The translations under genes were made by a program, and so were the position numbers. A stretch of 64,000 nucleotides of DNA. Origin: Hyphomicrobiales bacterium (GTDB lineage: Bacteria; Bacteroidota; Bacteroidia; Bacteroidales; JBGRPZ01). Location: assembly GCA_041725915.1 (NCBI GenBank), contig JBGRPZ010000003.1, positions 5,209-69,208 of the forward strand. Reading direction: 5' to 3'. Shown piece after piece: positions 1-25,951 of this stretch (positions are counted from its first letter, which is position 1; every line of letters starts with the position of its first letter). The notes below the pieces were generated by a model. The model did no database searches, was not told the DNA's origin, and saw only the letters and a list, made by a program, of their open reading frames with translations.

Positions 1-1159
1 ACAGCGATTTAATTTCCAACTCAGCCTCTGCCAGTTCATCATCTGCAATTTTAAGTTGTTCGTTTATATCTAACTCATTCAGCAGCCCTCTTGCAAACAG
101 AGTATAATCTCTTACACCAAATCCAGTATAGAAGATTGAAGTCTTATTAATACTCTTCTTACCTTCTGATGAAGAATACACAACACCTGACTTTACAGAT
201 ATATTCGAAGCTCCACTAGGTAGACTCAGGTTTACATCTTGAACAGTACCAATACTATCACCCACTTGTGAAAACAGAGTAAAGTCCTTTATCTTCATAC
301 AAGAGCTGATAAAGTAGAGCTTTGCCTTTGGATTTCTTTTCAGTTCAGTAAAGAGATAACGCAATCGCCCTGCCTGAGCTTTATCATATAGAAACTCCAT
401 CTCAGACACTTTCGATTGCCAGTGTATAATCTGTATAGTATCAATCTTTACAATAAACTTTATATACTGAGTTTTTCCACTACTGGACTCTATAGAGTTA
501 AGTTTACGATACCTCAAGTTTACAGAAGCTCCTGCCTCTTTTCTCAATAGATATTCATCATAAATACTCTTTGAAGATTCAATAAAATAAGAGCTTTTCG
601 CATCAAAAGTCAGTACATCCTTGGAGATATTATTATCAGGATCATATAGAATGAATTTGCCCACAGGATAAACATTAGACTGGGAGTATCCTGGTTTTTT
701 GCTTTTATTCAGAATATCTACATATCTTTTCTCTGACAGTTCGGTCATTATATCTGCAATAGAAGAGAAGTCCTCTGCAATTTCAGTTGCTGCCGAAATA
801 GTTACTATATTTCCTTTCCCCCTTTTGATCAAAGATTCCACATTCTTTGAAACCGTCAATATAGACTTACGTGTCTTATTATCTGAATTCAGGAAATAGC
901 CTGAAAACTTTACTGCTTTTATCTTTCTCTTTCTAATTCTTATAGTAATGCTTTCCCCATTCTCAATACTAACTGGAATCTTATCTAATGCATTTCCTGA
1001 CTTCTCAATTAACTGATAGAAGACTAATGCTTTCTCTGTTTTTGGTGATCCAACTCCAAAGACAAAATTAAACGAATACTTAGCTGCGAACCCCATTGTG
1101 CTCGTCAACACAAAGAATAATAAAAATACTAACCCTTTTATCGCTACTTTTTGATTCAT
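1..1159 (-). CDS. Partial CDS (3' end runs off the left window edge): probable secreted hypothetical protein, 386 aa visible
   Basis: This ORF is not in the supplied track because it has no stop inside the window. My own reverse-complement translation from the ATG at 1159-1157 reads MNQKVAIKGLVFLLFFVLTSTMGFAAKYSFNFVFGVGSPKTEKALVFYQLIEKSG... It stays open codon by codon down to position 1 (...NEQLKIADDELAEAELEIKSL). The N-terminus has a hydrophobic signal-like segment. No family recognised. Confidence 0.6.
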   Translation of the reverse strand, partial: MNQKVAIKGLVFLLFFVLTSTMGFAAKYSFNFVFGVGSPKTEKALVFYQLIEKSGNALDKIPVSIENGESITIRIRKRKIKAVKFSGYFLNSDNKTRKSILTVSKNVESLIKRGKGNIVTISAATEIAEDFSSIADIMTELSEKRYVDILNKSKKPGYSQSNVYPVGKFILYDPDNNISKDVLTFDAKSSYFIESSKSIYDEYLLRKEAGASVNLRYRKLNSIESSSGKTQYIKFIVKIDTIQIIHWQSKVSEMEFLYDKAQAGRLRYLFTELKRNPKAKLYFISSCMKIKDFTLFSQVGDSIGTVQDVNLSLPSGASNISVKSGVVYSSSEGKKSINKTSIFYTGFGVRDYTLFARGLLNELDINEQLKIADDELAEAELEIKSL

Positions 1160-15605: not shown

Positions 15606-16118
15606 TTAATAGCACAACCTTGTAATAAGCTCCAATTGACTAGGATACTTTAATATAAGATCTCTGAATTTCCCTTTTTTCACATCTGACTTGTCCAATG
15701 AAGGAGATGCTGTTATTCCAATCAAAGCATAGCCATCTTCATTTTGAAGGTATGCTGCAAACCAAGTATCATGAGGAATTACATATTGAAAATATTCAAA
15801 TTCAGATAAGTCAGAACCTAGCTTTATGCTTCTTCTAACTCCTTTCTCTGAGATTGTTTCTATAACTATTGGGGATGTCCCTGTATAGTAATGCCAACAT
15901 TCTTCTTGGTTGGTCTTTATAAATCTAAATAGGTCTTTATTCTGTAATAGAAGATAAAAAGTATTGAGATAAGGTCTTTTCCCATAAAATCTATCAGGTA
16001 GGGCATCTTCACCTATATATTCATCTGATTTATATGTTTCTCTTGTGTATATTCCTTCCAGAGAGGGGGATAAATTGAGTTGTTTTATCCAGTAACTGGC
16101 TTCTTTCTTAGTTGTCAT
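15606..16118 (-). CDS. Cupin-fold protein of the DUF985 family
   Basis: The track ORF extends to 16202. The ATG at 16118 (MTTKKEASYWIKQLNLSPSLEGIYTRETYKS...) fits the family N-terminus. 'TFYLLLQNKDLFRFIKTNQEECWHYYTG' resembles the DUF985 core. Confidence 0.65.
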   Translation of the reverse strand: MTTKKEASYWIKQLNLSPSLEGIYTRETYKSDEYIGEDALPDRFYGKRPYLNTFYLLLQNKDLFRFIKTNQEECWHYYTGTSPIVIETISEKGVRRSIKLGSDLSEFEYFQYVIPHDTWFAAYLQNEDGYALIGITASPSLDKSDVKKGKFRDLILKYPSQLELITRLCY

Positions 16119-16260
16119 ATTAGTTCCTGTTATGTAGTAATACAATACTATAAGATAAGAATTTAATAGCAACAAAACAAGATCATAATTCAATTTAAAC
16201 ATTGACTACAAAGAGCTTAGATCTAAACAAACCTAAACTCTTCATACAGATTAAAACCAA

Positions 16261-16797
16261 CTATTGTGGAGCTGCAAATACCTGCACCCAGTATTTTCCA
16301 TCTGAGCTTCTCCCCATTCCTATTTCAGTGAATTTATCATTCATTATGTTTGCACAATGCCCTTCACTATGTAGCCAACCATTAATAACAGCTTTTTCTG
16401 AATCATAGCCTTCTGCTATATTTTCACCACAGTAAGAGTATGTATATCCTTCTCTAACTACCCTATCCCAAGGTTTAGAACCATCTTTACCTGTGTGAGA
16501 AAAGTAGTTTTTATCCTGCATATCCTGCGCATGTTTCTGCGCTGCCTTTGCCAAAACAGCATTCCATTTCAATTCTTTTACTGCTGTAAAATACTTATCA
16601 TCACTAAATTTATAACCAGAAGTACGAGCTGCATTCACTAATGTCATAGATTCTGTAAAAGAAGCTAGTGACACTACTTCAGGTTTAATACTCTCTTTTG
16701 TTTCTTCCTTTTTACAAGAAGTAATGTTTGATGAAATAAAAAACAATAATGACAGAACTAATAAGACCTGTCGCGTAATCTTATATACACAATTCAT
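16261..16797 (-). CDS. CAP/SCP/PR1-like domain lipoprotein (YkwD-like)
   Basis: 178-aa ORF with a signal peptide and lipobox-like 'NITSC'. The CAP core is 'HAQDMQDKNYFSHTGKDGSKPWDRV...GENIAEGY...AVINGWLHSEGHCANIMN'. Confidence 0.8.
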   Translation of the reverse strand: MNCVYKITRQVLLVLSLLFFISSNITSCKKEETKESIKPEVVSLASFTESMTLVNAARTSGYKFSDDKYFTAVKELKWNAVLAKAAQKHAQDMQDKNYFSHTGKDGSKPWDRVVREGYTYSYCGENIAEGYDSEKAVINGWLHSEGHCANIMNDKFTEIGMGRSSDGKYWVQVFAAPQ

Positions 16798-16885: not shown

Positions 16886-18301
16886 TTATTTTATCGTATC
16901 AATTATTTTCTTGACTCGTTTTCGAAGCTCTTCGCCCTTATCCTTATCAATCATATATATGAAATCTGCAAATCCTTTTATTGAAGATAGCATGTTCTTT
17001 CCCTTCTTTCCTCTCCATACCTTATCTTCAATCCCGTCTTTTTCAATCTGAAATAATAAAGCTTTAAACTTCTTTACCTCTTTTCTATTGACAGAAGGCT
17101 TTTCATTTACAACAACACCTGTCACTTCCTGACGACGACCAGATCTTAGCACTTTCAGCTTATCAGGATGAACTCTAAAGTTCTCTTCCTTTACAATCTG
17201 GTTCACCATAGCTATTAATTTCCTAATAGAATCAGTACTATCATCAGTACTAGAGAAAGTTAAATCATCAGCATAACGAGTATATTCAAAGCCATAATGC
17301 TTAGCTATACCTATAAGACGAGCATCTAATTTTCTACAGATAATATTAGTGATAGCAGGACTTGAAGGAGCTCCTTGAGGAAGGTAACGTGCAGATTTAG
17401 AAACAAAATAACTCTGATCATCAAGTTCTACCTCTGCTACTTCTGGTTCAGTAGTCAATAAAGCCAGAATAATTGAAATTTGCTCACTATAACCAAAAGA
17501 CTTATACATTCCCTTAACCCTTTCATATGTCAAGGATGGGAAAAAGTTCTTTAAGTCCATATTAATAACAACCTTCTTATTAATATGAGGCATTGCATTA
17601 GTAAGAATACTTTTGTTTGGAATAAAGCCATGAGCAACTTCATTGGTTTGAAGCTTATACAGAAGGTTCTCGAGAAGCCAGTTTTGAACTTTCTTCAATC
17701 TGGGTTTTGGTGCAGAAATCATACGCTTACCACCTGTTTTCTTCTCCATAAAGAAACGGGTGTAATGACTTACAGTAGAAGTTTTTCTAGTGAAAGAAAG
17801 AAACCTCAATTCATTTACTGTAAGTTCCATCTTCTTGGCCATATCCTCAACATTACTAAATGCTGGAAGATTCAACTCTACTAATCTCTGATTGTCAGAT
17901 TCTGTATTGTTTAGACCTTTAGATACCTCTTCACCTAAGTATACGATATTCTTTTCTTGCTTCTCTTGCCAGGCTTTAGCTCTTTCTTCCTTTTCTTGCT
18001 TTCTTCTTGCTTTAGTCTCTTCTTGCTTTTTACGAGATTCCAACATTCTGTTCTTACGGATCTCATTAAGTAAGGTTTCACGATTAGAAAATTTACTTAA
18101 ATCTGCAGACAGCTTATAAATTTCTTTAGAAAGCTCAGCTTCTCTCTTTATCAATTGTGAAGAAACTGAAGGCATTTGTTCGTTTTCATCCCAGAAACCA
18201 AGGCGTTTCATTTCAGATAAAACATAGGAATCCTTAGAACTCTCTTTAATTTTGTCGTAAATCTCTTGTCTCTTATTATCGTCTACTTGTCCCATAATCA
18301 A
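16886..18301 (-). CDS. Retron-type reverse transcriptase with a ~170-aa Lys/Glu-rich N-terminal extension
   Basis: 471-aa ORF. The readable motifs are 'ISAPKPRLKKVQ' (RT1/2), 'NAMPH' (retron-characteristic NAxxH) and 'VINMDLKNFFPS' (motif A). They continue with 'LPQGAPSSPAITN' (motif B), 'YTRYADDLTFS' (YADD box) and 'EVTGVVVN' (retron-characteristic VTG). The N-terminal section (e.g. 'RKKQEETKARRKQEKEERAKAWQEKQEK') has no RT similarity. Confidence 0.9.
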   Translation of the reverse strand: MIMGQVDDNKRQEIYDKIKESSKDSYVLSEMKRLGFWDENEQMPSVSSQLIKREAELSKEIYKLSADLSKFSNRETLLNEIRKNRMLESRKKQEETKARRKQEKEERAKAWQEKQEKNIVYLGEEVSKGLNNTESDNQRLVELNLPAFSNVEDMAKKMELTVNELRFLSFTRKTSTVSHYTRFFMEKKTGGKRMISAPKPRLKKVQNWLLENLLYKLQTNEVAHGFIPNKSILTNAMPHINKKVVINMDLKNFFPSLTYERVKGMYKSFGYSEQISIILALLTTEPEVAEVELDDQSYFVSKSARYLPQGAPSSPAITNIICRKLDARLIGIAKHYGFEYTRYADDLTFSSTDDSTDSIRKLIAMVNQIVKEENFRVHPDKLKVLRSGRRQEVTGVVVNEKPSVNRKEVKKFKALLFQIEKDGIEDKVWRGKKGKNMLSSIKGFADFIYMIDKDKGEELRKRVKKIIDTIK

Positions 18302-18385
18302 TCACAGACACCCCCTTTTAATCTTAAATCACACTCCTCAAATAAGAATCATATGATGAATATAGCAAGGTAAATTATACATATA

Positions 18386-18407
18386 GAATGGTGATCCACC
18401 AGTCAAT
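18386..18407 (-). repeat. Truncated third copy of the ncRNA 5' element (hairpin core + GTCAAT), 85-106 nt upstream of the RT start
   Basis: gaatggtgatccacca|gtcaat matches both full modules (gaatggYgatccaccattcggtttgcaaggtcaat), apart from a 13-nt internal deletion (ttcggtttgcaag). Confidence 0.5.
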
Positions 18408-18531
18408 TAATAAGGTTAATGCCTGCTTTAAAATTAAATTCTACAATTTTTTTAGCTATAAAACACCTTCAAATATCATAAATGATAAAAGGTAAATCTC
18501 AAGAAGAAATATTGAGATAAAAGAATAGAAA

Positions 18532-18755
18532 AAAGGTGACAATCAGGCCTTCGTCAATCTTAGGACTGAAGCGTTCAACTCAAATGATATAGCTATAGTA
18601 AATACATTTACTTTTGTGAAACAAATGTAGTACCGAAATGTGTTTACTATAGCTATATCATAAAGTAAAGAACGTGTCAGTGACGCGTATGAAATCTATT
18701 TACATGAATGGTGATCCACCATTCGGTTTGCAAGGTCAATCCCAATGCCACCTTT
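18532..18755 (-). ncRNA. Retron msr-msd-like structured ncRNA, copy A (RT-proximal)
   Basis: A terminal inverted repeat pairs 18532-18541 with 18746-18755 (10 bp). There is a 19-nt hairpin at 18706-18724 and a 17-nt hairpin at 18672-18688. A 78-nt long hairpin at 18584-18661 has 26-bp arms. The scaffold outside the long stem differs from copy B at only 4 of about 127 nt by hand alignment. Strand is inferred from gene context and the wobble pattern. Confidence 0.65.
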
Positions 18756-18938
18756 ATTTGAATACAAGATAATTTCTATGACAAAACAAACTTTTAATAT
18801 TAACACAAAACTTATGCAAACATCTAATAAATCAGATATTTACAATAACTTATAGTAAATATATAAAAGAGCATTTTATACTGTCAAGCAACAAAAAAGC
18901 ACCAACAATTATATACTTTAATGTTTACTTCATCAAAC

Positions 18939-19152
18939 AAACAACGAGACCTTCGTCAATCTTAGGACTGAGGCGTTCAACTCAAATGATACGGGTATGG
19001 TAGTTAAATTCGCTTTTGTAGCACAAATGCCGAACCGGAATTTGACTACCATACCCGTATCATAAAGTAAAGAACGTGTCAGTGACGCGTGAGAAATCTA
19101 TTTACATGAATGGCGATCCACCATTCGGTTTGCAAGGTCAATCTCGTTGTTT
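18939..19152 (-). ncRNA. Retron msr-msd-like structured ncRNA, copy B (RT-distal)
   Basis: A perfect 11-bp terminal inverted repeat pairs aaacaacgaga (18939-18949) with tctcgttgttt (19142-19152). Hairpins lie at 19108-19126 and 19074-19090. The 78-nt long hairpin at 18986-19063 has arms that differ from copy A at about 9 positions, each compensated on the opposite arm. Confidence 0.65.
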
Positions 19153-19161
19153 ATCTGAGTA

Positions 19162-19169
19162 CAAATATA
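19162..19169 (-). promoter_or_regulatory. Candidate Bacteroidota -7 promoter box (TAnnTTTG) just upstream of ncRNA copy B
   Basis: The minus-sense sequence reads TATATTTG. It ends about 8-10 nt before the first base of the copy-B terminal stem (19152-19154), in the 50-nt gap after the SWIM stop codon. This is consensus matching only. Confidence 0.3.
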
Positions 19170-19202: not shown

Positions 19203-20828
19203 TTATTTTTTACATAAATATTTCATTCTTAAAGCAAGGATATGTTCGCATGGTCCTCCATTAGAACCATTCTGGTACATATAAGAACAATTACACTTCA
19301 TTTGCTTTATTCTCAAGTCTTTATTCATATGAAGCACAGCATCTTTTCCGGACACATTAGCTTGAACTTTAATATAGTCATCTGATTCCTCAGCATTAAA
19401 ATTCTTGATAAAATTATTATCAAAAAAGTATGCCGCCTTTTTCTCTTGTTCAGAAGCAAATTTAAGTTGATCCATAGGGAGAGGATCTTTTGTCAGCTCC
19501 CTGATTCTATATACTTCTTTATTGATGTCATAAATAATTCTTCCAGACTCAGCATAATCAAAAAGTACGCTTTCAACAACATTTTTGTCCATATTTAGGC
19601 TAGAAGCAAGGGAATTGGAAGTATTGAGCCAATCGCCTTTCAACTTATTGTAAACCAGTTGTTGAGTATGAGCATCTGTTTCAACTTTATTGGCAAACAA
19701 GGTAAAGTTGCTATTACTAGACCAGTCATTAGCACTCCAGCCAGACAATCCAAGAGTAAAAGACATTTCACCAAGATCAGCAACATAGAATGAAGGAAGA
19801 CCAGAACCCATAAGTCTTACTTTTATAGACTTACATATTGGCAACAATCTTTCCAGTATAAGCAATCTTCTTCTACCCCAGATTTTTATTTCCTGAGGTT
19901 TATCTCCTTTATAGATAGATCTTGAACAATTTACAGTAATTCCCCAAGGAGCAAAAACAGCTTTTATAGGTTTACCAGGTTCAAGAATATATTTAATATA
20001 TCGAGGACTTTCTTTTTCCTTGTGTTTTTTCAGTACGAGTAAGAAGTTAGCCATATCCATTGGATGAAGCTCAAAGCTAACATCTGAAAGAGTCATAGCA
20101 GAACTTACCTGAAGAAAACCCCTTACCCATGATTCAGGAAGGTCAATTTTCATCTCTTTGAAATGATCTTCATTTGTTGTTTGCATCTCGAAACCAGAAG
20201 GATCAATCTTCAATTGAGTATTCTTATAATCTCTGATTTTCTGGAACTCATTATAAAGAGCAGCAGAATAATCAATATTAGTAGTACCATAAGCCATTTC
20301 AGATACATTATCGAAAACGTTATGACTACAACTCAATTTACCATAAGAAGATTCATCTTTACTGAAGCATTCAAAGAAGATTTCATCAGGATGAACAGTA
20401 ATAACAGGGTCAAGTACCAACCAAGATGTATAATCTCTATCATACAAGTAGCTATAGTATTTTGCTCTTGCATTATAAAAAGGGCCAATTACTTTTTGCT
20501 TTTCAGTACGAACCTCTTTAAGTTCTTTCGACAAAGGATCAATCTTTTCTCTAATTGCATCAGCCTTAGTCATATATTCAGCAATCCAAAGATCTTCTTG
20601 CTCAGCAACCCATTTTTTATACTCTTCACGATCTTTAGGAACAAATCTCATATCAGAGATCACCACATCATGAAGAGAAGATATTGCTTCACGAAAAGGG
20701 ATATGCATATTCAGATCACCCACGAAATAAGTAGGGTCTCTCAATACATCAGGAACAAAGTTCATCCCTGTTTGATTACCTTTAGACTGGACGGATGACG
20801 ATCCACTATATTTATGGTTGAAAATCAT
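19203..20828 (-). CDS. SWIM zinc-finger protein (large N-terminal unassigned region + C-terminal SWIM)
   Basis: 541-aa ORF. The C-terminal 'CNCSYMYQNGSNGGPCEHILALR' fits the SWIM CxCx(n)CxH signature. The start is 5 nt after the stop of the upstream WGR/HEAT gene. Confidence 0.8.
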   Translation of the reverse strand: MIFNHKYSGSSSVQSKGNQTGMNFVPDVLRDPTYFVGDLNMHIPFREAISSLHDVVISDMRFVPKDREEYKKWVAEQEDLWIAEYMTKADAIREKIDPLSKELKEVRTEKQKVIGPFYNARAKYYSYLYDRDYTSWLVLDPVITVHPDEIFFECFSKDESSYGKLSCSHNVFDNVSEMAYGTTNIDYSAALYNEFQKIRDYKNTQLKIDPSGFEMQTTNEDHFKEMKIDLPESWVRGFLQVSSAMTLSDVSFELHPMDMANFLLVLKKHKEKESPRYIKYILEPGKPIKAVFAPWGITVNCSRSIYKGDKPQEIKIWGRRRLLILERLLPICKSIKVRLMGSGLPSFYVADLGEMSFTLGLSGWSANDWSSNSNFTLFANKVETDAHTQQLVYNKLKGDWLNTSNSLASSLNMDKNVVESVLFDYAESGRIIYDINKEVYRIRELTKDPLPMDQLKFASEQEKKAAYFFDNNFIKNFNAEESDDYIKVQANVSGKDAVLHMNKDLRIKQMKCNCSYMYQNGSNGGPCEHILALRMKYLCKK

Positions 20829-20833
20829 GCTTC

Positions 20834-23800
20834 TTAAAATTGTTTGGTTTCAATCTTCTTTTCTTTCAATAAAACAGGCATATTCGGATAAGAATCCTGA
20901 ATACCAGAGAGTATTTCAATACATTTCGCTTTATCACCAATAGCCATAGTCAAGGAAATACGATTAAGGATATGAGTAACAGCCTCTGCTATCTTTTCAT
21001 TATGCATAGCCTGATTTTTCAAAAAAGAAAATACTCTATCCTTGACAACTCTGGCTTTATTGATATGACTTAAAACAGTATTGAAATAAGGAAGTAGATT
21101 TAATATCACCTCTTCATTGCCTGCCGCATAAGTTTCAATATAGTTACTTACAAAAAGCTGAAGATTCTTAGATGGATGTTGGCTTAACTTCAGTAGGTAG
21201 TCCATACCATCCACATCTTTAAAGAAACGAACCGCTAGGTTACGTCCAAAAGTTTGAACATCATCCCTAACACTATCACAGATATTAATGATAATATCAG
21301 AATTCCATTCATTCTCTGTATAATATTTATTGAAGAAATCAAAAGCGAATTTCCTGCTATCTTCCCATTTTGCATCAAGGATCTTCAAGGCTTCATCTTT
21401 ATAATACTTTACCTTGTCAACATTTGACTCAAAATAATTCCAGCATGTCTTACGCATAGTATAGACTTCAGAAGAAGCGAGTTTTGCAATGTCTATCATA
21501 TCCATTGTTTCAATGATATTATGATCATTGAACAACTTAGAACCTAAATCCTGAGCAACATTATATCTTGATTCTACAAGCTTAAACACATAATCATGTT
21601 TGATAAACTTCAGATAATAGCTCAATTCATCACTTAATAACTTCTGTATACTTTCATGAACACCTTCATACTTCTCCTTTTTCCATAAATAAGAAATAAG
21701 GCTTGCTGTCAAATTAGCACCATATTGATCATCAATAAGAGTAATTTTCTTGATGATTGGACTTATAGCATCTCTTGCATCAGCATACTTAGAAATACAT
21801 AAAGAAGCTACTAATGAACTTTTCTCTTGTAGCTTATCAATATTATATTGATCCAGAAGACTAATACCTAACATTCTGTTTGCTTCATTATCTGAATCAA
21901 GAAAAGCAAGCAAATACTTATTAGCAGATTCCTCAAAAGGTGTAGATGCTAACAAGATATGCTTAAGGAGAATCATGTTTGTATATGTGTTTGTACTGAT
22001 AAGATACTCCCTCAATTTATCAGATTGACCTCCTAATACAAGCTTACAATACTTCAGTAACATCTCACTAATTCGTATTACAGTCTCTGTATCCTCAGCA
22101 TTCAATTCATTCACAATAAATCCGCCAGCATCAGAAACCAAGTCTTCTTGCTGAGCAGTTGTAAACTCAGAAGAATGAGCCAAAGCCCAAAAGTGAGTCT
22201 TATTATATTTAGATATCAACAATCGGGTTAATAACCCAAAGTTAGATACAATGTCATCCTTACGCTGATTAGCCAAAAAGACACCCATATCACGAGCTTT
22301 CTCTGAAGCACTATTCATAAGACCTATAATAAGATCGAGATCTAATTCCTGATCTACTCTTGTAGCTAATACTGATAAGCCTATATTTACTGAAGAAGGA
22401 TTATCAGACTTCAACATAGCCAATAAGGCAGATTCATCAACAAGATCTTTCCATTTAGGATGATCATTAAACACCTTTGAAGCGAACTCAGCTACCTGCT
22501 CGATATGAGCCTCACATAATAATTTAATGATACTTTGAGGATCATTATTCCATAACTCCTGATTTAACTCCTCCCTTCCTGCAGGTGCTGCATCTTCTGG
22601 TTTAATTCCATTTTTATATATCCAGGCATCATAATATCCACTATACTGATACCTTAATTCATTGGCATATAATATTTGATTTAACAACCCTTCTTTAGGG
22701 AATGGACTTTTATAAACATCATACCTAATATATTCATCCTTATCATAATCATACCTACCACCTCTGACTTTCTTGATAGGTTGTACATCGATTTGTCTGA
22801 ATTGCAATAGATATTCTGTAGCATACTTTGTATATTCTGAAGAGCCTTGCTTCGCATAGCCCAAGATCTCTCTGGCTACTCTTCTCTTCATATAGTCCTT
22901 AGTTCTACTAGAAAAAGCAAACTTAGTATTATACTCTCTTCCTACTGCTTCCTTAACATCTCTATCAGAATAATAAGCTCCATCAACATAGACATAACCC
23001 TTATTATTATACCCTTCCTTACTAAGCTCCATTTCTCTACCTAGTATAGCATATAATTTATGATCAGAAACAAATTCAGATGCCTTAAAGATATATCTCA
23101 TATACCTGAACGAACCAGGCGCAAAAGGATATACTGCAATTTTATTATATAATACTTCTTTTATATAAGGAAGATGAAAAGAGAATAGAAACAGATCATA
23201 AATCCATTTCTTATTATTTATTGAATAATTATCGTAATAATCATCTAAGGCCTTGGATAGTTGATCTACATCATTACTTTTGAGAAAAGCAAACTCCTCA
23301 GGCGTATAATCAATTAATGATGGTAGATAAGGTTTTTTATCCTCAGCAATATGAAGAAGTGCCACTTGAGCAACACGCCTAACCATATCTTCTTTATCAT
23401 AATAATACAGTTGCTCGAGAGCAGGGACAGCTTTTACATTATTGATCTTTGCCAATGCATAAACACATGAATATCTAACAAAAACATCTTTATGCTTTGT
23501 TAGCTTTATAATATATGACAGCCCTTCTACAAGCTTTTCACGTCCTGCCCTCCATACAATACGAGAAAGTTTATACTCTTGATTTGGTCGATCACCCGAA
23601 GTTAGATTTTTCAGGATCCATGACTCATATTCAGGCTTAGTATCAGTTTTAATCTCTTCTACTTTTGCCTCACTATTTTCCTCATAACCCTTTTTCTTCT
23701 TTGAGTCAACGAGCTTATCAAATGCCTTAATAGCCTTTGCCTCCTCTACTGGTGTTGTTGTCTTTGTTCCTTCTTTAAGGTTTGCACCTCTTTTTCCATA

Positions 23801-23908
23801 GCGGAAATTTACAACATACCCTGATTCTACCCTACACAAATCTACTTCGTATACTTTGTCAGAACCCCCAGTTGTATTATATAAAGTAACCTGTTTTATT
23901 AATTCCAA
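20834..23908 (-). CDS. WGR-domain + HEAT/ARM-repeat protein (MolR/DUF4132-like architecture)
   Basis: 1024-aa ORF with a TTG start as given in the track. The N-terminal WGR-like domain is 'GGSDKVYEVDLCRVESGYVVNFRYGKRGANLKEGTKTTTPVEEAKAIKAFDKLVDSKKKKGYEE'. HEAT-like repeats follow ('DVFVRYSCVYALAKINNVKAVPALEQLYYYDKEDMVRRVAQVALLHI'), and the remainder is all-helical. Confidence 0.75.
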   Translation of the reverse strand: MELIKQVTLYNTTGGSDKVYEVDLCRVESGYVVNFRYGKRGANLKEGTKTTTPVEEAKAIKAFDKLVDSKKKKGYEENSEAKVEEIKTDTKPEYESWILKNLTSGDRPNQEYKLSRIVWRAGREKLVEGLSYIIKLTKHKDVFVRYSCVYALAKINNVKAVPALEQLYYYDKEDMVRRVAQVALLHIAEDKKPYLPSLIDYTPEEFAFLKSNDVDQLSKALDDYYDNYSINNKKWIYDLFLFSFHLPYIKEVLYNKIAVYPFAPGSFRYMRYIFKASEFVSDHKLYAILGREMELSKEGYNNKGYVYVDGAYYSDRDVKEAVGREYNTKFAFSSRTKDYMKRRVAREILGYAKQGSSEYTKYATEYLLQFRQIDVQPIKKVRGGRYDYDKDEYIRYDVYKSPFPKEGLLNQILYANELRYQYSGYYDAWIYKNGIKPEDAAPAGREELNQELWNNDPQSIIKLLCEAHIEQVAEFASKVFNDHPKWKDLVDESALLAMLKSDNPSSVNIGLSVLATRVDQELDLDLIIGLMNSASEKARDMGVFLANQRKDDIVSNFGLLTRLLISKYNKTHFWALAHSSEFTTAQQEDLVSDAGGFIVNELNAEDTETVIRISEMLLKYCKLVLGGQSDKLREYLISTNTYTNMILLKHILLASTPFEESANKYLLAFLDSDNEANRMLGISLLDQYNIDKLQEKSSLVASLCISKYADARDAISPIIKKITLIDDQYGANLTASLISYLWKKEKYEGVHESIQKLLSDELSYYLKFIKHDYVFKLVESRYNVAQDLGSKLFNDHNIIETMDMIDIAKLASSEVYTMRKTCWNYFESNVDKVKYYKDEALKILDAKWEDSRKFAFDFFNKYYTENEWNSDIIINICDSVRDDVQTFGRNLAVRFFKDVDGMDYLLKLSQHPSKNLQLFVSNYIETYAAGNEEVILNLLPYFNTVLSHINKARVVKDRVFSFLKNQAMHNEKIAEAVTHILNRISLTMAIGDKAKCIEILSGIQDSYPNMPVLLKEKKIETKQF

Positions 23909-24381: not shown

Positions 24382-25434
24382 ATGATTGATAAAATATCAT
24401 TGAAAAATTTTCAAATCTTTACTTCCTTTGAAACAAATGATTTAAAACCTATCAATATAATTATAGGGAAAAACGACACAGGTAAAACGGGTCTGCTTAA
24501 GCTGTTGTATACATACACAAAGTCGTTAGATGAATATGCCATCGAACAAAGAAATGCGAATTCGCCAAGATCTATAAAAGAAATCTTAAGCAAGAAAGTT
24601 ATTAACACCTTCTCCGGAATAGGCAAACTCGTAAATAAAGGCTCAAATGAAAAGCTGGAAGCCAATATTTATTACTCATCCGGTAACCAGCTTGAAGCTT
24701 CCTTCACTAAGACTACCGAAAAGCAAATCAATCAGTGTTCTATCCCTGAAAACAGAAGTTCACAAACAGAGAATGCTATATTCATCCCCGCTAAGGAAGT
24801 ACTTTCTATTATAAATACCATAAGGTTTGTACGAGAATCATTCAAGATATTAGACTTTGATGATACTTATTATGATCTTGCCAAATCACTATCAATACCT
24901 CCAATAAAAGAATCAAAATCAGAAATCAATCTGAAGAATATCTATTCAAAGCTTAGTGATATACTTAAAGGCGATATTGTTCCCAAAGAACAAAACCAGC
25001 TTATCAAGGAGTTTATATTCAGAAAAAATAAATCTGAATTTGACATGTCTATGACTGCTGAAGGAATTAAGAAACTTGGTGCTATTAAGCTTTTGTTAGA
25101 GAATGGCCAAATAAACAAAGACACTATCTTATTTATTGATGAGCCTGATGCTAATTTACATCCTGATGCTATACGTAAACTTTGTGAAATCCTATATCTA
25201 TTAAGTAAAGAAGGAATTCAAATATTCCTTGCTACACACAATTACTTTATGATCAACCAATTCTCTATTCTCGCCAGAAGAGAGGACTATTCTATTAATT
25301 GTATTGTACTCACTAAAGATAACAACTCAATATCTAATACTACTTCTGATCTAAAATATGCACAACCAGACAATTCAATTATTAATGAGGCTCTGGATAT
25401 GTTAGATGATGAAATGGATTTAGATATTGAATAA
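24382..25434 (+). CDS. ABC-type AAA ATPase (AAA_15/AAA_21-like, no coiled-coil insert)
   Basis: 350-aa ORF. 'ISLKNFQIFTSFETNDLKPINIIIGKNDTGKTGLLKLLY' carries Walker A, 'ILFIDEPDANLHPDAIRKL' carries Walker B/D-loop, and 'FLATHNYFM' carries the H-loop. Confidence 0.8.
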   Translation: MIDKISLKNFQIFTSFETNDLKPINIIIGKNDTGKTGLLKLLYTYTKSLDEYAIEQRNANSPRSIKEILSKKVINTFSGIGKLVNKGSNEKLEANIYYSSGNQLEASFTKTTEKQINQCSIPENRSSQTENAIFIPAKEVLSIINTIRFVRESFKILDFDDTYYDLAKSLSIPPIKESKSEINLKNIYSKLSDILKGDIVPKEQNQLIKEFIFRKNKSEFDMSMTAEGIKKLGAIKLLLENGQINKDTILFIDEPDANLHPDAIRKLCEILYLLSKEGIQIFLATHNYFMINQFSILARREDYSINCIVLTKDNNSISNTTSDLKYAQPDNSIINEALDMLDDEMDLDIE

Positions 25435-25951
25435 TATGAATACAATTATAGAAAGTGGTATTACATTAAACTTACCAGAAGACAGAAGTTTTCGCTTTGA
25501 AAATTGCAAAAGTTATAAAGAAATTAACGGTTTTTCTTTCAAAGAAATGGATGCCTGTTGGTATGATAATAAAAAGCAAACATTATACTTAGTAGAATTG
25601 AAGGATTATAGTCAAGTACCTAATACAAGAGAAAAAAGCAGAGATCTCATTACAAACTTAGTAAAGAAATCTACCGATAGCCTGCAAATGGTTCTTGCTA
25701 TGCTGCTTGATACTGAACATGGAAACAAGTTTCAAGCTGAAATTGGATGGGATTTACCTGTAGGCACTTCGCTGAAATTCATCTCTATAATCAAGACAGA
25801 ATCATATATAAAAAAGTATTTTCAGTCTTTAAATCAAGGATACAAAACAAAATTCTCCCCTTTTAAAAAGTTGTATAATCCATTTATTGATATCAAAGCC
25901 TTTGTGATCAACTATGATAAAGCGAAAGAAAAGTTTGAATGGGTAAAATAG
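25427..25951 (+). CDS. Small hypothetical protein, possible PD-(D/E)xK-fold nuclease, translationally coupled to the ATPase
   Basis: 174-aa ORF overlapping the ATPase stop by 8 nt. 'FKEMDACWYDNKKQTLYLVELKDY' gives a D-x16-E-x-K arrangement compatible with a restriction-endonuclease-like core. The motif match is weak. Confidence 0.4.
   Translation: MNNMNTIIESGITLNLPEDRSFRFENCKSYKEINGFSFKEMDACWYDNKKQTLYLVELKDYSQVPNTREKSRDLITNLVKKSTDSLQMVLAMLLDTEHGNKFQAEIGWDLPVGTSLKFISIIKTESYIKKYFQSLNQGYKTKFSPFKKLYNPFIDIKAFVINYDKAKEKFEWVK

What the first reader, a model, noticed from the sequence alone, without database searches (positions are those of the whole stretch)
18532..19152. Two tandem retron-like ncRNA modules: near-identical scaffold, fully compensated divergent stems and divergent terminal inverted repeats
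Seen directly: modules A (18532-18755) and B (18939-19152) share a scaffold. That scaffold (ccttcgtcaatcttaggactga.gcgttcaactcaaatgata ... tatcataaagtaaagaacgtgtcagtgacgcgt..gaaatctatttacatgaatgg.gatccaccattcggtttgcaaggtcaat) has only 4 mismatches in about 127 nt by hand alignment. The central 78-nt hairpin is a different matter. In A the arms are atgatatagctatagtaaatacattt / aaatgtgtttactatagctatatcat. In B they are atgatacgggtatggtagttaaattc / gaatttgactaccatacccgtatcat. The arms differ at about 9 of 20 variable-arm positions, and every change is mirrored on the opposite arm, so both keep a 26-bp stem. The apical element (ttttgt-NNN-acaaat) and a 3' bulge ending in accg are conserved. Each module is also closed by its own, unrelated terminal inverted repeat: aaaggtgaca/tgccaccttt in A and aaacaacgaga/tctcgttgttt in B. 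This is the a1/a2 arrangement of retron msr-msd RNAs. Conserved flanks with a compensated hypervariable stem argue for selection on structure and for diversification of stem sequence, not neutral decay of a duplicate. I do not know of a retron described with two divergent msd templates serving one RT. Possible meanings are two msDNA species with different specificities, or escape from phage factors that target the msDNA stem.
Basis: seen in the sequence. Interest (0 to 1): 0.9.

Follow-up and report, generated by a model that had tools for sequence, protein, structure and literature searches.

The report
Natural tandem retron template array
A bacterial type XIII retron carries two intact, differently-stemmed copies (plus one dead copy) of its template RNA gene in a row in front of a single reverse transcriptase, and related genomes carry one to four such copies, which suggests that one enzyme naturally makes several different small DNAs.

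Summary
Two about 215-nt modules share a scaffold (110/114 identical). Their 26-bp stems differ at 8 positions, all mirrored, and each has its own terminal inverted repeat. The retron reading is supported, with corrections. The RNA lies on the window's MINUS strand, inside the operon WGR-HEAT > SWIM > module B > module A > dead module C > RT. This is a type XIII retron (PADLOC E = 1e-183 to 1e-273). Each module has a1/a2 repeats, an invariant CUUGC (candidate branching G) opposite an invariant ACGAAG (priming site), an msr hairpin and a long msd hairpin.

Across 30 homologous modules, 41 of 44 pairs show compensatory changes. The msr hairpin has 30 G·U and 0 A·C pairs, which fixes the strand. 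Arrays are not unique to this window. Of 23 related loci, 10 carry 2-4 modules (L007 and L016 carry the same RT, so 9 of 22 distinct loci) and 13 carry one. The stem segment diverges as fast as or faster than synonymous sites, and it appears to be exchanged between modules.

I found no description of natural multi-module retrons in the searchable literature. msDNA production, use of both modules and any difference in specificity remain untested. Verdict: new variant of a known kind.

The parts
20834..23908 (-). WGR + HEAT/ARM-repeat accessory protein (1024 aa), the first gene of the retron operon
   Evidence: PADLOC WGR_XIII E = 3.5e-273. Pfam WGR and HEAT_2.
19203..20828 (-). SWIM zinc-finger accessory protein (541 aa; C-terminal CxC...CxH)
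   Evidence: PADLOC SWIM_XIII E = 4.4e-215. The C-terminal CNCSYMYQNGSNGGPCEH is visible.
19162..19169 (-). TATATTTG, a match to the Bacteroidota -7 promoter consensus TAnnTTTG, 9 nt upstream of module B's a1
   Evidence: One search gives the position. The motif is not enriched window-wide. The same motif sits just upstream of a1 in L001, L015 and L017. Suggestive only.
18939..19152 (-). Module B, a complete msr-msd ncRNA gene. a1 is 19142-19152 and a2 is 18939-18949. CUUGC is 19132-19136, with the candidate branching G at 19133. The msr hairpin is about 19108-19126. The long msd hairpin is 18986-19063. The first template G of ACGAAG is at 18954.
   Evidence: CM R1 gives 161.6 bits, E = 1.9e-43 (this module was in the CM seed alignment).
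18532..18755 (-). Module A, a complete msr-msd ncRNA gene. a1 is 18746-18755 and a2 is 18533-18542. CUUGC is 18730-18734, with the candidate branching G at 18731. The msr hairpin is about 18706-18724. The long msd hairpin is 18584-18661. The first template G is at 18552.
   Evidence: CM R1 gives 159.7 bits, E = 6.6e-43 (this module was in the CM seed alignment).
18552..18692 (+). Predicted msDNA-A. This is the cDNA sequence, which equals the + strand. The 5' end is inferred from the priming geometry and the 3' end is approximate.
   Evidence: Folds as DNA at -31.8 kcal/mol, z = -9.2. The ends are inferred, not shown.
18954..19094 (+). Predicted msDNA-B, with the same scaffold and a different 20-bp stem segment
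   Evidence: Folds as DNA at -36.7 kcal/mol, z = -9.0. The ends are inferred.
18308..18418 (-). Decayed third module (C), directly abutting the RT start. It retains the CCUU stretch, the msr hairpin and the 3' UAAGAUU stretch. CUUGC has become CUUAU, the msd stem is deleted and ACGAAG is lost.
   Evidence: nhmmer E = 0.004. CM gives 17.8 bits, with 114 model positions replaced by 35 nt.
16886..18301 (-). Retron reverse transcriptase (471 aa; annotated start probably the ATG at 18295). It has a K/E-rich N-terminal extension and the motifs NAMPH (NAxxH), YADD and VTG.
   Evidence: PADLOC RT_XIII E = 7e-183. Pfam RVT_1. The best solved relatives are retron RTs, led by Ec86 at 4e-44. The motifs are read.

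Best explanation
This is a type XIII retron read on the minus strand. Its ncRNA gene has expanded into a tandem array of three modules: B and A are intact, and the RT-proximal copy C is dead.

Each intact module is a self-contained msr-msd unit. It has its own a1/a2 closing helix, and that helix ends in a conserved CCUU/AAGG helix (ACUU/AAGU in some lineages). This places the invariant G of CUUGC (the inferred 2'-OH priming or branching G) opposite the invariant G of ACGAAG (the inferred first template base). Each module also has one msr hairpin with a conserved U·G pair and a long, interrupted msd hairpin.

A and B share the RT-recognition scaffold almost base for base, so the single RT most likely uses both. 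It would then make two msDNAs of about 140 nt. These would be identical in scaffold and apical loop but different over a stem segment of about 20 bp (8 of its base pairs differ between A and B). The module-specific a1/a2 pairs would keep each module folding on itself within a possible B-A-RT co-transcript.

Shown here: the anatomy, the strand, the covariation, the recurrence of arrays, and the fast evolution of the stem. Inferred: the priming site, the use of both modules, the msDNA ends and co-transcription. Speculative: that the two stems give the SWIM/WGR-HEAT effector complex two different sensing specificities.
For: System identity:
- RT_XIII, SWIM_XIII and WGR_XIII hits at E = 7e-183, 4e-215 and 4e-273.
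- NAxxH, YADD and VTG motifs in the RT.

Module architecture and stability.

Family alignment of 30 modules from 17 sources (the window and 16 loci):
- CTTGC, GAGT (the core of the GAGTTGA motif) and the A..G of the CGAAG core are invariant; the other positions of these motifs are at least 90% conserved.
- RNAalifold finds 41 of 44 pairs with compensatory changes.
- 87% of cells are paired, against 63% in shuffles. The covariation score is 0.616, against 0.18 shuffled and 0.09-0.13 for slid controls.

Strand: the msr hairpin has 30 G·U and 0 A·C pairs on the RT-sense strand. The a1/a2 helix of module A has G·U on the minus strand and A·C on the plus strand.

Both window modules score about 160 bits with the covariance model (they were among its seed sequences). 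Held-out modules elsewhere were recovered at 89.7-177.4 bits.

Arrays recur:
- 2-4 modules in the window, L002, L003, L004, L005, L006, L007/L016, L008, L010 and L027.
- One module in 13 loci.
- Modules always lie between the SWIM gene and the RT, on the RT strand, wherever the SWIM gene is on the contig.

Orthologous 4-module arrays in L006 and L008 are retained although 4-fold-site identity in the RT has fallen to 0.48. This argues that the modules are maintained by selection.

The dead module C shows what an unselected copy looks like.
Against: - There are no transcript, cDNA or phenotype data.
- The window's closest RT relative is only 59% identical, so there is no near-orthologue in which to compare A and B directly.
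- Module A lacks the TAnnTTTG motif that precedes B, so its expression could depend on read-through.
- High A/B scaffold identity could reflect recent duplication or gene conversion rather than independent selection on both copies.
- No phage defence or mechanism for type XIII retrons was found in the papers I could search, so the downstream role of two msDNAs is unknown.
Confidence: 0.8

Rival explanations
1. Neutral redundancy. The array arose by tandem duplication, and both copies still work, but the stem differences carry no function. The stem is constrained only to pair, so it drifts. Quasipalindrome template switching during replication copies a change in one arm onto the other, which gives 'perfect compensation' without selection. 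Extra modules only add dosage or robustness, and they are lost again, as module C was.
For: - Many related loci manage with one module.
- Modules die.
- Single-module pairs L024/L025 and L023/L026 keep 85% stem identity, so stems are not always hypervariable.
- The stems have no detectable targets in the window or in viral, phage or plasmid collections.
- The apparent palindrome enrichment vanishes under dinucleotide-preserving shuffles.
- Template-switch correction of quasipalindromes is an established mutational mechanism (background knowledge).
Against: - In L027 the two modules still share their a1/a2 cores and a 32/32-identical apical region, yet only 12/27 variable-stem columns match. 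Divergence is therefore focused on one segment.
- L006 and L008 orthologous modules have stem identities of 0.15, 0.23 and 0.44, below the 0.48 identity at 4-fold sites. One stem reappears in a different module at 0.77.
- Four-module arrays are retained across that divergence.
- The conserved C·A mismatch persists despite any arm-homogenising process.
Confidence: 0.4
2. Only one module is a working retron template. The other is a pseudo-copy, or it has been co-opted as a regulatory element (for example a decoy for the RT, or a transcription attenuator upstream of the RT).
For: - Module A has no recognisable TAnnTTTG promoter of its own, and it ends in a U-run after a2 (CACCUUUUUU), which resembles an intrinsic terminator.
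- A truly dead module exists in the same array.
Against: - Both modules keep every family-invariant position, full stem pairing, cognate a1/a2 helices and near-equal CM scores of 161.6 and 159.7 bits.
- The dead copy scores 17.8 bits.
- U-runs after a2 also occur in single-module loci (L001, L023, L027_2), so they are a family feature and not a sign of decay.
Confidence: 0.12
3. The modules are not retron templates at all. They are plus-strand RNAs or DNA-level repeats (REP/MITE-like palindromes, terminators) that happen to sit beside an RT.
For: - The plus strand folds about as well as the minus strand.
- No Rfam family matches.
Against: - G·U against A·C asymmetry (30:0) places the msr hairpin on the RT strand.
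- Within the fetched loci and the 64-kb window, modules were detected only upstream of type XIII RT genes and on the RT strand, between the SWIM gene and the RT wherever the SWIM gene is on the contig. No copies occur elsewhere in the window or in the phage and plasmid collections.
- The opposed invariant Gs at the inner end of a1/a2 are the retron priming geometry (PMC7736814 Fig. 2 legend).
Confidence: 0.03

Closest known systems
Type XIII retrons (Mestre et al. 2020, PMC7736814; validated members Mx162, Mx65, Sa163, Ne144)
   Same: - RT clade, with the N-terminally extended RT.
- SWIM/DEDE and WGR-HEAT/ARM partner genes.
- msr-msd ncRNA with a1/a2, short msr hairpin(s), a long msd hairpin and a predicted long msDNA (about 140 nt, compared with 144-163 nt).
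   Different: - The described members and the classification treat the retron as one ncRNA gene plus one RT. The paper's main text has no occurrence of 'tandem', 'duplicat', 'copies' or 'more than one'.
- Here there are 2 intact modules plus 1 dead one, and up to 4 in relatives.
- Its ncRNA models for type XIII are labelled Firmicutes/Mx162/Mx65/Ne144, so this mainly Bacteroidota-type scaffold may not have been modelled.
Engineered retron arrays ('multitrons', PMC10370050)
   Same: Several msr-msd or msd units sit in tandem and are served by one RT to make several RT-DNAs in one cell.
   Different: - Those are synthetic, built on Eco1, and they repeat the same a1/a2 and scaffold, or use a trans msr.
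- The natural arrays here give each module its own a1/a2 pair and vary an internal segment of the stem, about 20 bp in the window (13-15 alignment columns per arm family-wide).
Canonical single-module retrons with solved structures (Ec86/Eco1, Ec67/Eco2, Ec78/Eco7, Ec83, Eco8, Kva2)
   Same: The RT fold family, the opposed-G priming geometry, and the general idea that msDNA acts as the sensing or antitoxin component.
   Different: - They have different effector sets.
- No solved homologue of the SWIM or WGR-HEAT proteins was found.
- Each has one ncRNA.
ncRNA arrays next to defence-associated RTs (bioRxiv 10.64898/2026.09.22.753630, which I could not read)
   Same: Possibly the same idea of several ncRNA copies beside one RT. 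The text holds 'ncRNA array' 10 times, 'DRT' 18 times and 'reverse transcriptase' 14 times.
   Different: It holds 'retron' only twice, and 'msr', 'msDNA', 'SWIM' and 'WGR' not at all. It probably concerns DRT systems rather than type XIII retrons. This is a caveat on novelty that I could not resolve.

Membership tests
Retron (RT + msr-msd ncRNA) | RT of the retron clade with NAxxH, YADD and VTG motifs | tested here: met
   TNAMPH, RYADDL and EVTGVVVN are read in the translation. All the best PADLOC hits are retron RT models. The best solved relatives are retron RTs.
Retron (RT + msr-msd ncRNA) | ncRNA contiguous with the RT and on the same strand | tested here: met
   G·U/A·C asymmetry of 30:0 in the msr hairpin. 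The modules lie 230-850 nt upstream of the RT start on the minus strand.
Retron (RT + msr-msd ncRNA) | Terminal inverted repeats a1/a2 closing the transcript | tested here: met
   Cognate duplexes are -25.2 kcal/mol (B) and -19.0 kcal/mol (A). A cognate a1/a2 duplex was computed for all 28 modules examined; most are strong (about -11 to -37 kcal/mol), while L002_1 (-7.9) and L004_2 (-4.7) are weak.
Retron (RT + msr-msd ncRNA) | Two opposed conserved G residues at the inner end of a1/a2 (the branching G and the start of the template) | tested here: met
   CTTGC is invariant in all 21 modules of alignment A3, and the CGAAG core is near-invariant, with its A and final G strictly invariant. The motifs flank the conserved CCUU/AAGG helix (ACUU/AAGU in some lineages). 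That this G is the branch point is inferred.
Retron (RT + msr-msd ncRNA) | Short msr hairpin(s) and a long msd stem-loop, supported by covariation | tested here: met
   41 of 44 pairs are compensatory. Covariation score is 0.616, against 0.18 shuffled and about 0.1 for slid controls.
Retron (RT + msr-msd ncRNA) | Production of a 2'-5' branched RNA-msDNA | not testable with these tools
   Needs RT-DNA gel analysis or sequencing and debranching.
Type XIII retron | RT in clade 10 (RT_XIII profile) | tested here: met
   PDLC02956 RT_XIII, E = 7.1e-183, covering residues 6-468. The next model scores 1e-92.
Type XIII retron | Linked SWIM Zn-finger protein (cluster 114) | tested here: met
   SWIM_XIII E = 4.4e-215. 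Gene at 19203-20828 (-).
Type XIII retron | Linked WGR + HEAT/ARM protein (cluster 216) | tested here: met
   WGR_XIII E = 3.5e-273. Pfam WGR and HEAT_2.
Type XIII retron | Match to the published type XIII ncRNA consensus structures (Mestre Suppl. Fig. S1) | not tested
   Supplementary files are not held.
Any Rfam RNA family | Score at or near a family's gathering threshold | tested here: not met
   The only hits are spurious miRNA-hairpin matches at E about 0.1, far below gathering. The whole window at gathering threshold gives only two tRNAs.
Diversity-generating retroelement (considered because of an RT plus near-identical repeats with a variable part) | Template/variable repeat pair with adenine-specific substitutions, with the variable repeat inside a target gene | tested here: not met
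   The A/B differences are t/c, a/g, c/g, a/g, a/g, a/t, c/a and t/c. They are mirrored on both arms and are not A-specific. The modules are non-coding and the RT is of the retron clade.
CRISPR-like repeat-spacer array (considered because of a conserved scaffold plus a variable insert) | Variable segments matching foreign DNA | tested here: not met
   No match of the modules in phage or plasmid collections. No exact 22-mer of either stem in viral contigs. These are weak negatives, given how little of the relevant phage diversity is sampled.

The most novel reading that the evidence does not exclude
Type XIII retrons carry natural multi-template arrays. One RT services up to four msr-msd modules. 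An internal segment of the msd stem (about 20 bp in the window) is a hypervariable cassette, exchanged between modules and turned over faster than synonymous sites. The resulting panel of msDNAs gives the SWIM/WGR-HEAT effector complex a diversified recognition or decoy repertoire, so that msDNA sequence, and not only its presence, encodes immune specificity.
Probability: 0.25. Interest if true: 0.85.

Novelty: new variant of a known kind. Interest (0 to 1): 0.66.

Why it matters
Retrons are defined and engineered as one ncRNA plus one RT. Natural arrays would show three things. First, a single retron RT is built to serve several templates at once. Second, evolution solved the mis-pairing problem by giving each module an orthogonal a1/a2 pair, which is a design rule directly usable for multiplexed retron editors. 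Third, the msd stem is a fast-evolving module in its own right, which points to the msDNA stem as the part of the system under arms-race pressure. Type XIII is the oldest known retron clade (Mx162), yet I found no described mechanism for it. A locus family with 1, 2, 3 or 4 templates is a natural experiment for asking what the msDNA sequence does. Desulfonema ishimotonii (two modules) and Saprospira grandis Lewin (one module) are isolate genomes in which this could be tested.

Tried and rejected
1. Plus-strand reading. Rejected on G·U/A·C asymmetry and on gene order.
2. Palindromic sites (GTAC, CTAG, ACTAGT, GGTACC) enriched in the stems as decoy restriction or methylation sites. This looked significant against mononucleotide shuffles (p about 0.003-0.006). 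It was not significant after removing related stems and using dinucleotide-preserving shuffles (p = 0.35 and 0.15). The residual signal is a TA-step excess and GA depletion.
3. Stems as spacer-like matches to other DNA. There is no second copy in the window, no exact 22-mer in viral contigs, and no blastn hit in phages or plasmids.
4. DGR-like mutagenesis. Rejected, because the substitutions are not A-specific.
5. Rfam identification. None.
6. Promoter evidence. TAnnTTTG is not enriched in the window (86 observed against 86 expected), so the match upstream of B is only suggestive. The sigma-70-type scan gave nothing above background.
7. More distant RT loci (L012-L014, L018-L021). No module and no long hairpins upstream, so the census applies only to this RT subfamily.
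8. Close orthologues of the window. None exist in the collections; the best RT is 59% identical.
9. Reading the Minerva preprint and Mestre's supplements. Neither was available.

Full report
**Observation.** The sequence at 18532-19152 is as described.
- The two modules share a scaffold that is 110/114 identical outside the central stem and the terminal repeats.
- The 26-nt stem arms differ at 8 positions, and each difference is mirrored on the opposite arm.
- Both stems keep a single non-Watson-Crick pair at the same position 20.
- Each module is closed by its own inverted repeat. Cognate duplexes are -25.2 and -19.0 kcal/mol, and cross-module duplexes are -4.6 and -9.6 kcal/mol.
- Either strand of either module folds 7-9 standard deviations better than dinucleotide shuffles.

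**Context and strand.**
- The modules sit inside a minus-strand gene row: a 1024-aa WGR + HEAT protein (23908-20834), a 541-aa SWIM zinc-finger protein (20828-19203), module B, module A, and a 471-aa reverse transcriptase (18301-16886).
- PADLOC profiles identify the three proteins as WGR_XIII (3.5e-273), SWIM_XIII (4.4e-215) and RT_XIII (7.1e-183). This is the type XIII retron of Mestre et al. (PMC7736814), the clade that contains Mx162, Mx65, Sa163 and Ne144.
- The RT carries the retron motifs NAxxH, YADD and VTG. Its closest solved relatives are retron RTs, with Ec86 best. No solved homologue of the two partner proteins was found.
- Read on the minus strand, each module has the canonical retron order: a1, msr hairpin, long msd hairpin, a2, then the RT downstream.
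- Three results fix the strand. The a1/a2 helix of module A has G·U on the minus strand but A·C on the plus strand. The msr hairpin of B has U·G on the minus strand. Across 30 homologous modules the msr hairpin has 30 G·U pairs and no A·C pairs on the RT-sense strand.

**Homologous loci.**
- RT relatives (46-59% identical; the window's own protein is the only close one) were fetched from genome, metagenome and assembly collections.
- A profile HMM and then a covariance model (R1: 190 positions, 48 pairs) found modules only upstream of the RT and on its strand, between the SWIM gene and the RT wherever the SWIM gene is on the contig.
- The window's two modules score 161.6 and 159.7 bits; both were in the model's seed alignment.
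- Modules that were not used to build the model (L004-L008, L016, L022, L028-L031, and the second module of L003) were recovered at 89.7-177.4 bits.
- Module counts:

| Modules | Loci |
|---|---|
| One | 13 loci: L001, L009, L015, L017, L022-L026, L028-L031 |
| Two | window, L003, L004, L010, L027 (Desulfonema ishimotonii) |
| Three | L002 |
| At least two, plus partial copies, at contig edges | L005, L007/L016 |
| Four | L006, L008 |

- So the tandem arrangement is a recurrent property of this RT subfamily and not a peculiarity of the window.

**Structure.**
- In the 30-module alignment (A2), CTTGC near the 5' end, GAGT (the core of the GAGTTGA motif after the long stem) and the A..G of the CGAAG core near the 3' end are invariant; the remaining positions of GAGTTGA and CGAAG are conserved in at least 90% of the modules.
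- CCUU/AAGG (ACUU/AAGU in some lineages) extends the a1/a2 helix. The G of CUUGC and the G of ACGAAG therefore face each other at its inner end. This is the 'two opposing G residues' geometry of retron priming (PMC7736814, Fig. 2 legend).
- RNAalifold predicts the msr hairpin and a long, interrupted msd stem. 41 of 44 pairs show compensatory changes.
- Counted independently, 87% of cells pair, against 63% in shuffles. The covariation score is 0.616, against 0.18 in shuffles and 0.09-0.13 when partners are slid by 1-3 columns.
- A C·A mismatch near the apical end is present in 16 of 30 modules, including both window modules. In the cDNA it would be a G·T wobble.
- The predicted cDNAs (+18552-18692 and +18954-19094) fold as DNA at -31.8 and -36.7 kcal/mol, z about -9.

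**Third module.** Between module A and the RT start lies a decayed module (18308-18418, minus strand).
- It keeps the CCUU stretch, the msr hairpin and the 3' UAAGAUU stretch.
- CUUGC has become CUUAU, 114 model positions including the msd stem are replaced by 35 nt, and ACGAAG is gone.
- It occupies the RT-adjacent position that the only module holds in single-module loci such as L001. It shows what an unselected copy looks like.
- By contrast, A and B keep every invariant position.

**How fast the stems change.**
- L006 and L008 carry orthologous four-module arrays, with the same a1/a2 sequences in the same order.
- Their RTs are 92% identical in protein, and identity at 4-fold degenerate sites is 0.48.
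- Module scaffolds are 83-93% identical. The variable stem segment is 0.69, 0.15, 0.23 and 0.44 identical in modules 1-4.
- The stem of L006 module 2 reappears in L008 module 3 at 0.77 identity.
- In L027 the two modules still share the cores of a1/a2 and a 32/32-identical apical region, but only 12/27 variable-stem columns match.
- Single-module pairs L024/L025 and L023/L026 keep 85% stem identity.
- So an internal stem segment (13-15 alignment columns per arm, about 20 bp in the window) turns over at or above the synonymous rate in arrays, and it seems to move between modules.
- This is compatible with diversifying selection. It is also compatible with structure-only constraint plus quasipalindrome template switching, an established mutational route that mirrors a change from one arm to the other (background knowledge). 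I cannot separate the two with these data.

**Expression.**
- A TAnnTTTG motif (the Bacteroidota -7 consensus) lies 4-12 nt upstream of a1 in module B and in L001, L015 and L017, which are all first or only modules. It is absent before module A.
- The motif is not enriched in the window overall, so this is only suggestive of a single promoter and a B-A-RT co-transcript.
- Module-specific a1/a2 helices would then ensure that each module folds on itself.

**What was not found.**
- No Rfam family matches.
- The modules have no similarity in the phage or plasmid collections.
- The stems have no other copy in the window and no exact 22-mer in viral contigs.
- An apparent enrichment of short palindromes in the stems disappears under dinucleotide-preserving shuffles of non-redundant stems. 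A TA-step excess and GA depletion remain unexplained.

**Literature.**
- Mestre et al. describe retrons as one ncRNA gene plus an RT. They do not mention tandem, duplicated or multiple ncRNAs.
- The SPIRE survey, the retron census and the other retron papers found do not mention them either.
- Tandem retron arrays are known only as engineered 'multitrons' (PMC10370050).
- One preprint that I could not open uses 'ncRNA array' ten times. By its term counts it concerns DRT systems rather than retrons. This is an unresolved caveat.

**Verdict.**
- The new element is a natural multi-template retron: two live modules and one dead one here, and up to four in relatives, with orthogonal closing helices and a fast-evolving stem cassette.
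- That both modules are reverse-transcribed is likely but unproven. That the two msDNAs differ in function is speculation.

Noticed in passing
window 18308-18418 (-): Dead third retron module abutting the RT start. The branching-G motif is mutated (CUUGC to CUUAU), the msd stem is deleted and the priming motif is lost. This implies birth-and-death turnover of modules, with the ancestral RT-adjacent copy being the one that died.
   Followed up: yes
window 24382-25951 (+): Divergently oriented gene pair about 470 nt beyond the retron operon. It matches the PADLOC candidate defence system HEC-02 (HEC-02A AAA_21-type ATPase, 1.4e-96; HEC-02B, 1e-28). The retron therefore sits in a small defence island.
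   Followed up: partly
window, whole; protein P0001: The only database copy of this RT is labelled 'MAG: Hyphomicrobiales bacterium'. The region is about 33% G+C (14-26 kb profiled) and the RT's nearest relatives are mostly Bacteroidota (Saprospiraceae, Bacteroidales, Cytophagales). The taxonomic label or binning of the MAG is probably wrong.
   Followed up: no
A2 columns 147/189; window + 18603/18642 and 19005/19044: A C·A mismatch (RNA sense), equal to a G·T wobble in the cDNA, sits at a fixed distance from the apical loop in 16 of 30 modules, including both window modules. A feature that pairs only in the DNA product hints at selection on the msDNA rather than on the RNA.
   Followed up: partly
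L006 5137-5638 vs L008 5214-5689: Between two genomes with orthologous four-module arrays, the variable stem of module 2 in one matches module 3 in the other (77%), while the a1/a2 helices and scaffolds stay in place. This suggests exchange of stem cassettes between modules.
   Followed up: partly
L004 2180-2235; L006 5041-5113; L008 4789-4854 and 5098-5189; L010 5065-5146 and 5341-5533: Long hairpins built from roughly 7-nt periodic repeats (GTTGCCA/GTTACCA, AGTTGGT/GGTTGGT) separate some modules in the Saprospiraceae arrays. They could be terminators, processing sites or REP-like elements.
   Followed up: no
variable stem arms of 30 modules (A2 columns 130-147): TA dinucleotides are over-represented (z = 3.9) and GA is depleted (z = -3.7) relative to mononucleotide shuffles. 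This explains an apparent excess of GTAC, CTAG and TATA palindromes. The cause is unknown.
   Followed up: partly
L004_1/L004_2, L006_1-3, L008_1-2 (for example L006 5140-5190): Some modules carry an extra hairpin of about 30 nt between CUUGC and the conserved msr hairpin (CUUGC-to-CGAAG span of 201-210 nt instead of 175-181 nt). Modules within one array therefore differ in msr architecture as well as in the stem.
   Followed up: no
window 18527-18532 (-) and equivalent sites in L001, L003, L023, L026, L027_2: A run of 5-8 U follows a2 in the RT-proximal (or only) module, so that a1/a2 plus the U-run resembles an intrinsic terminator just upstream of the RT gene. Module B lacks it. It may regulate the ratio of RT to ncRNA.
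   Followed up: no
window 15606-16797 (-): Directly downstream of the RT on the same strand are a CAP/SCP-domain lipoprotein-like gene and a Cupin_5 (DUF985) gene. They are not conserved next to the RT in related loci, so they are probably unrelated neighbours.
   Followed up: partly
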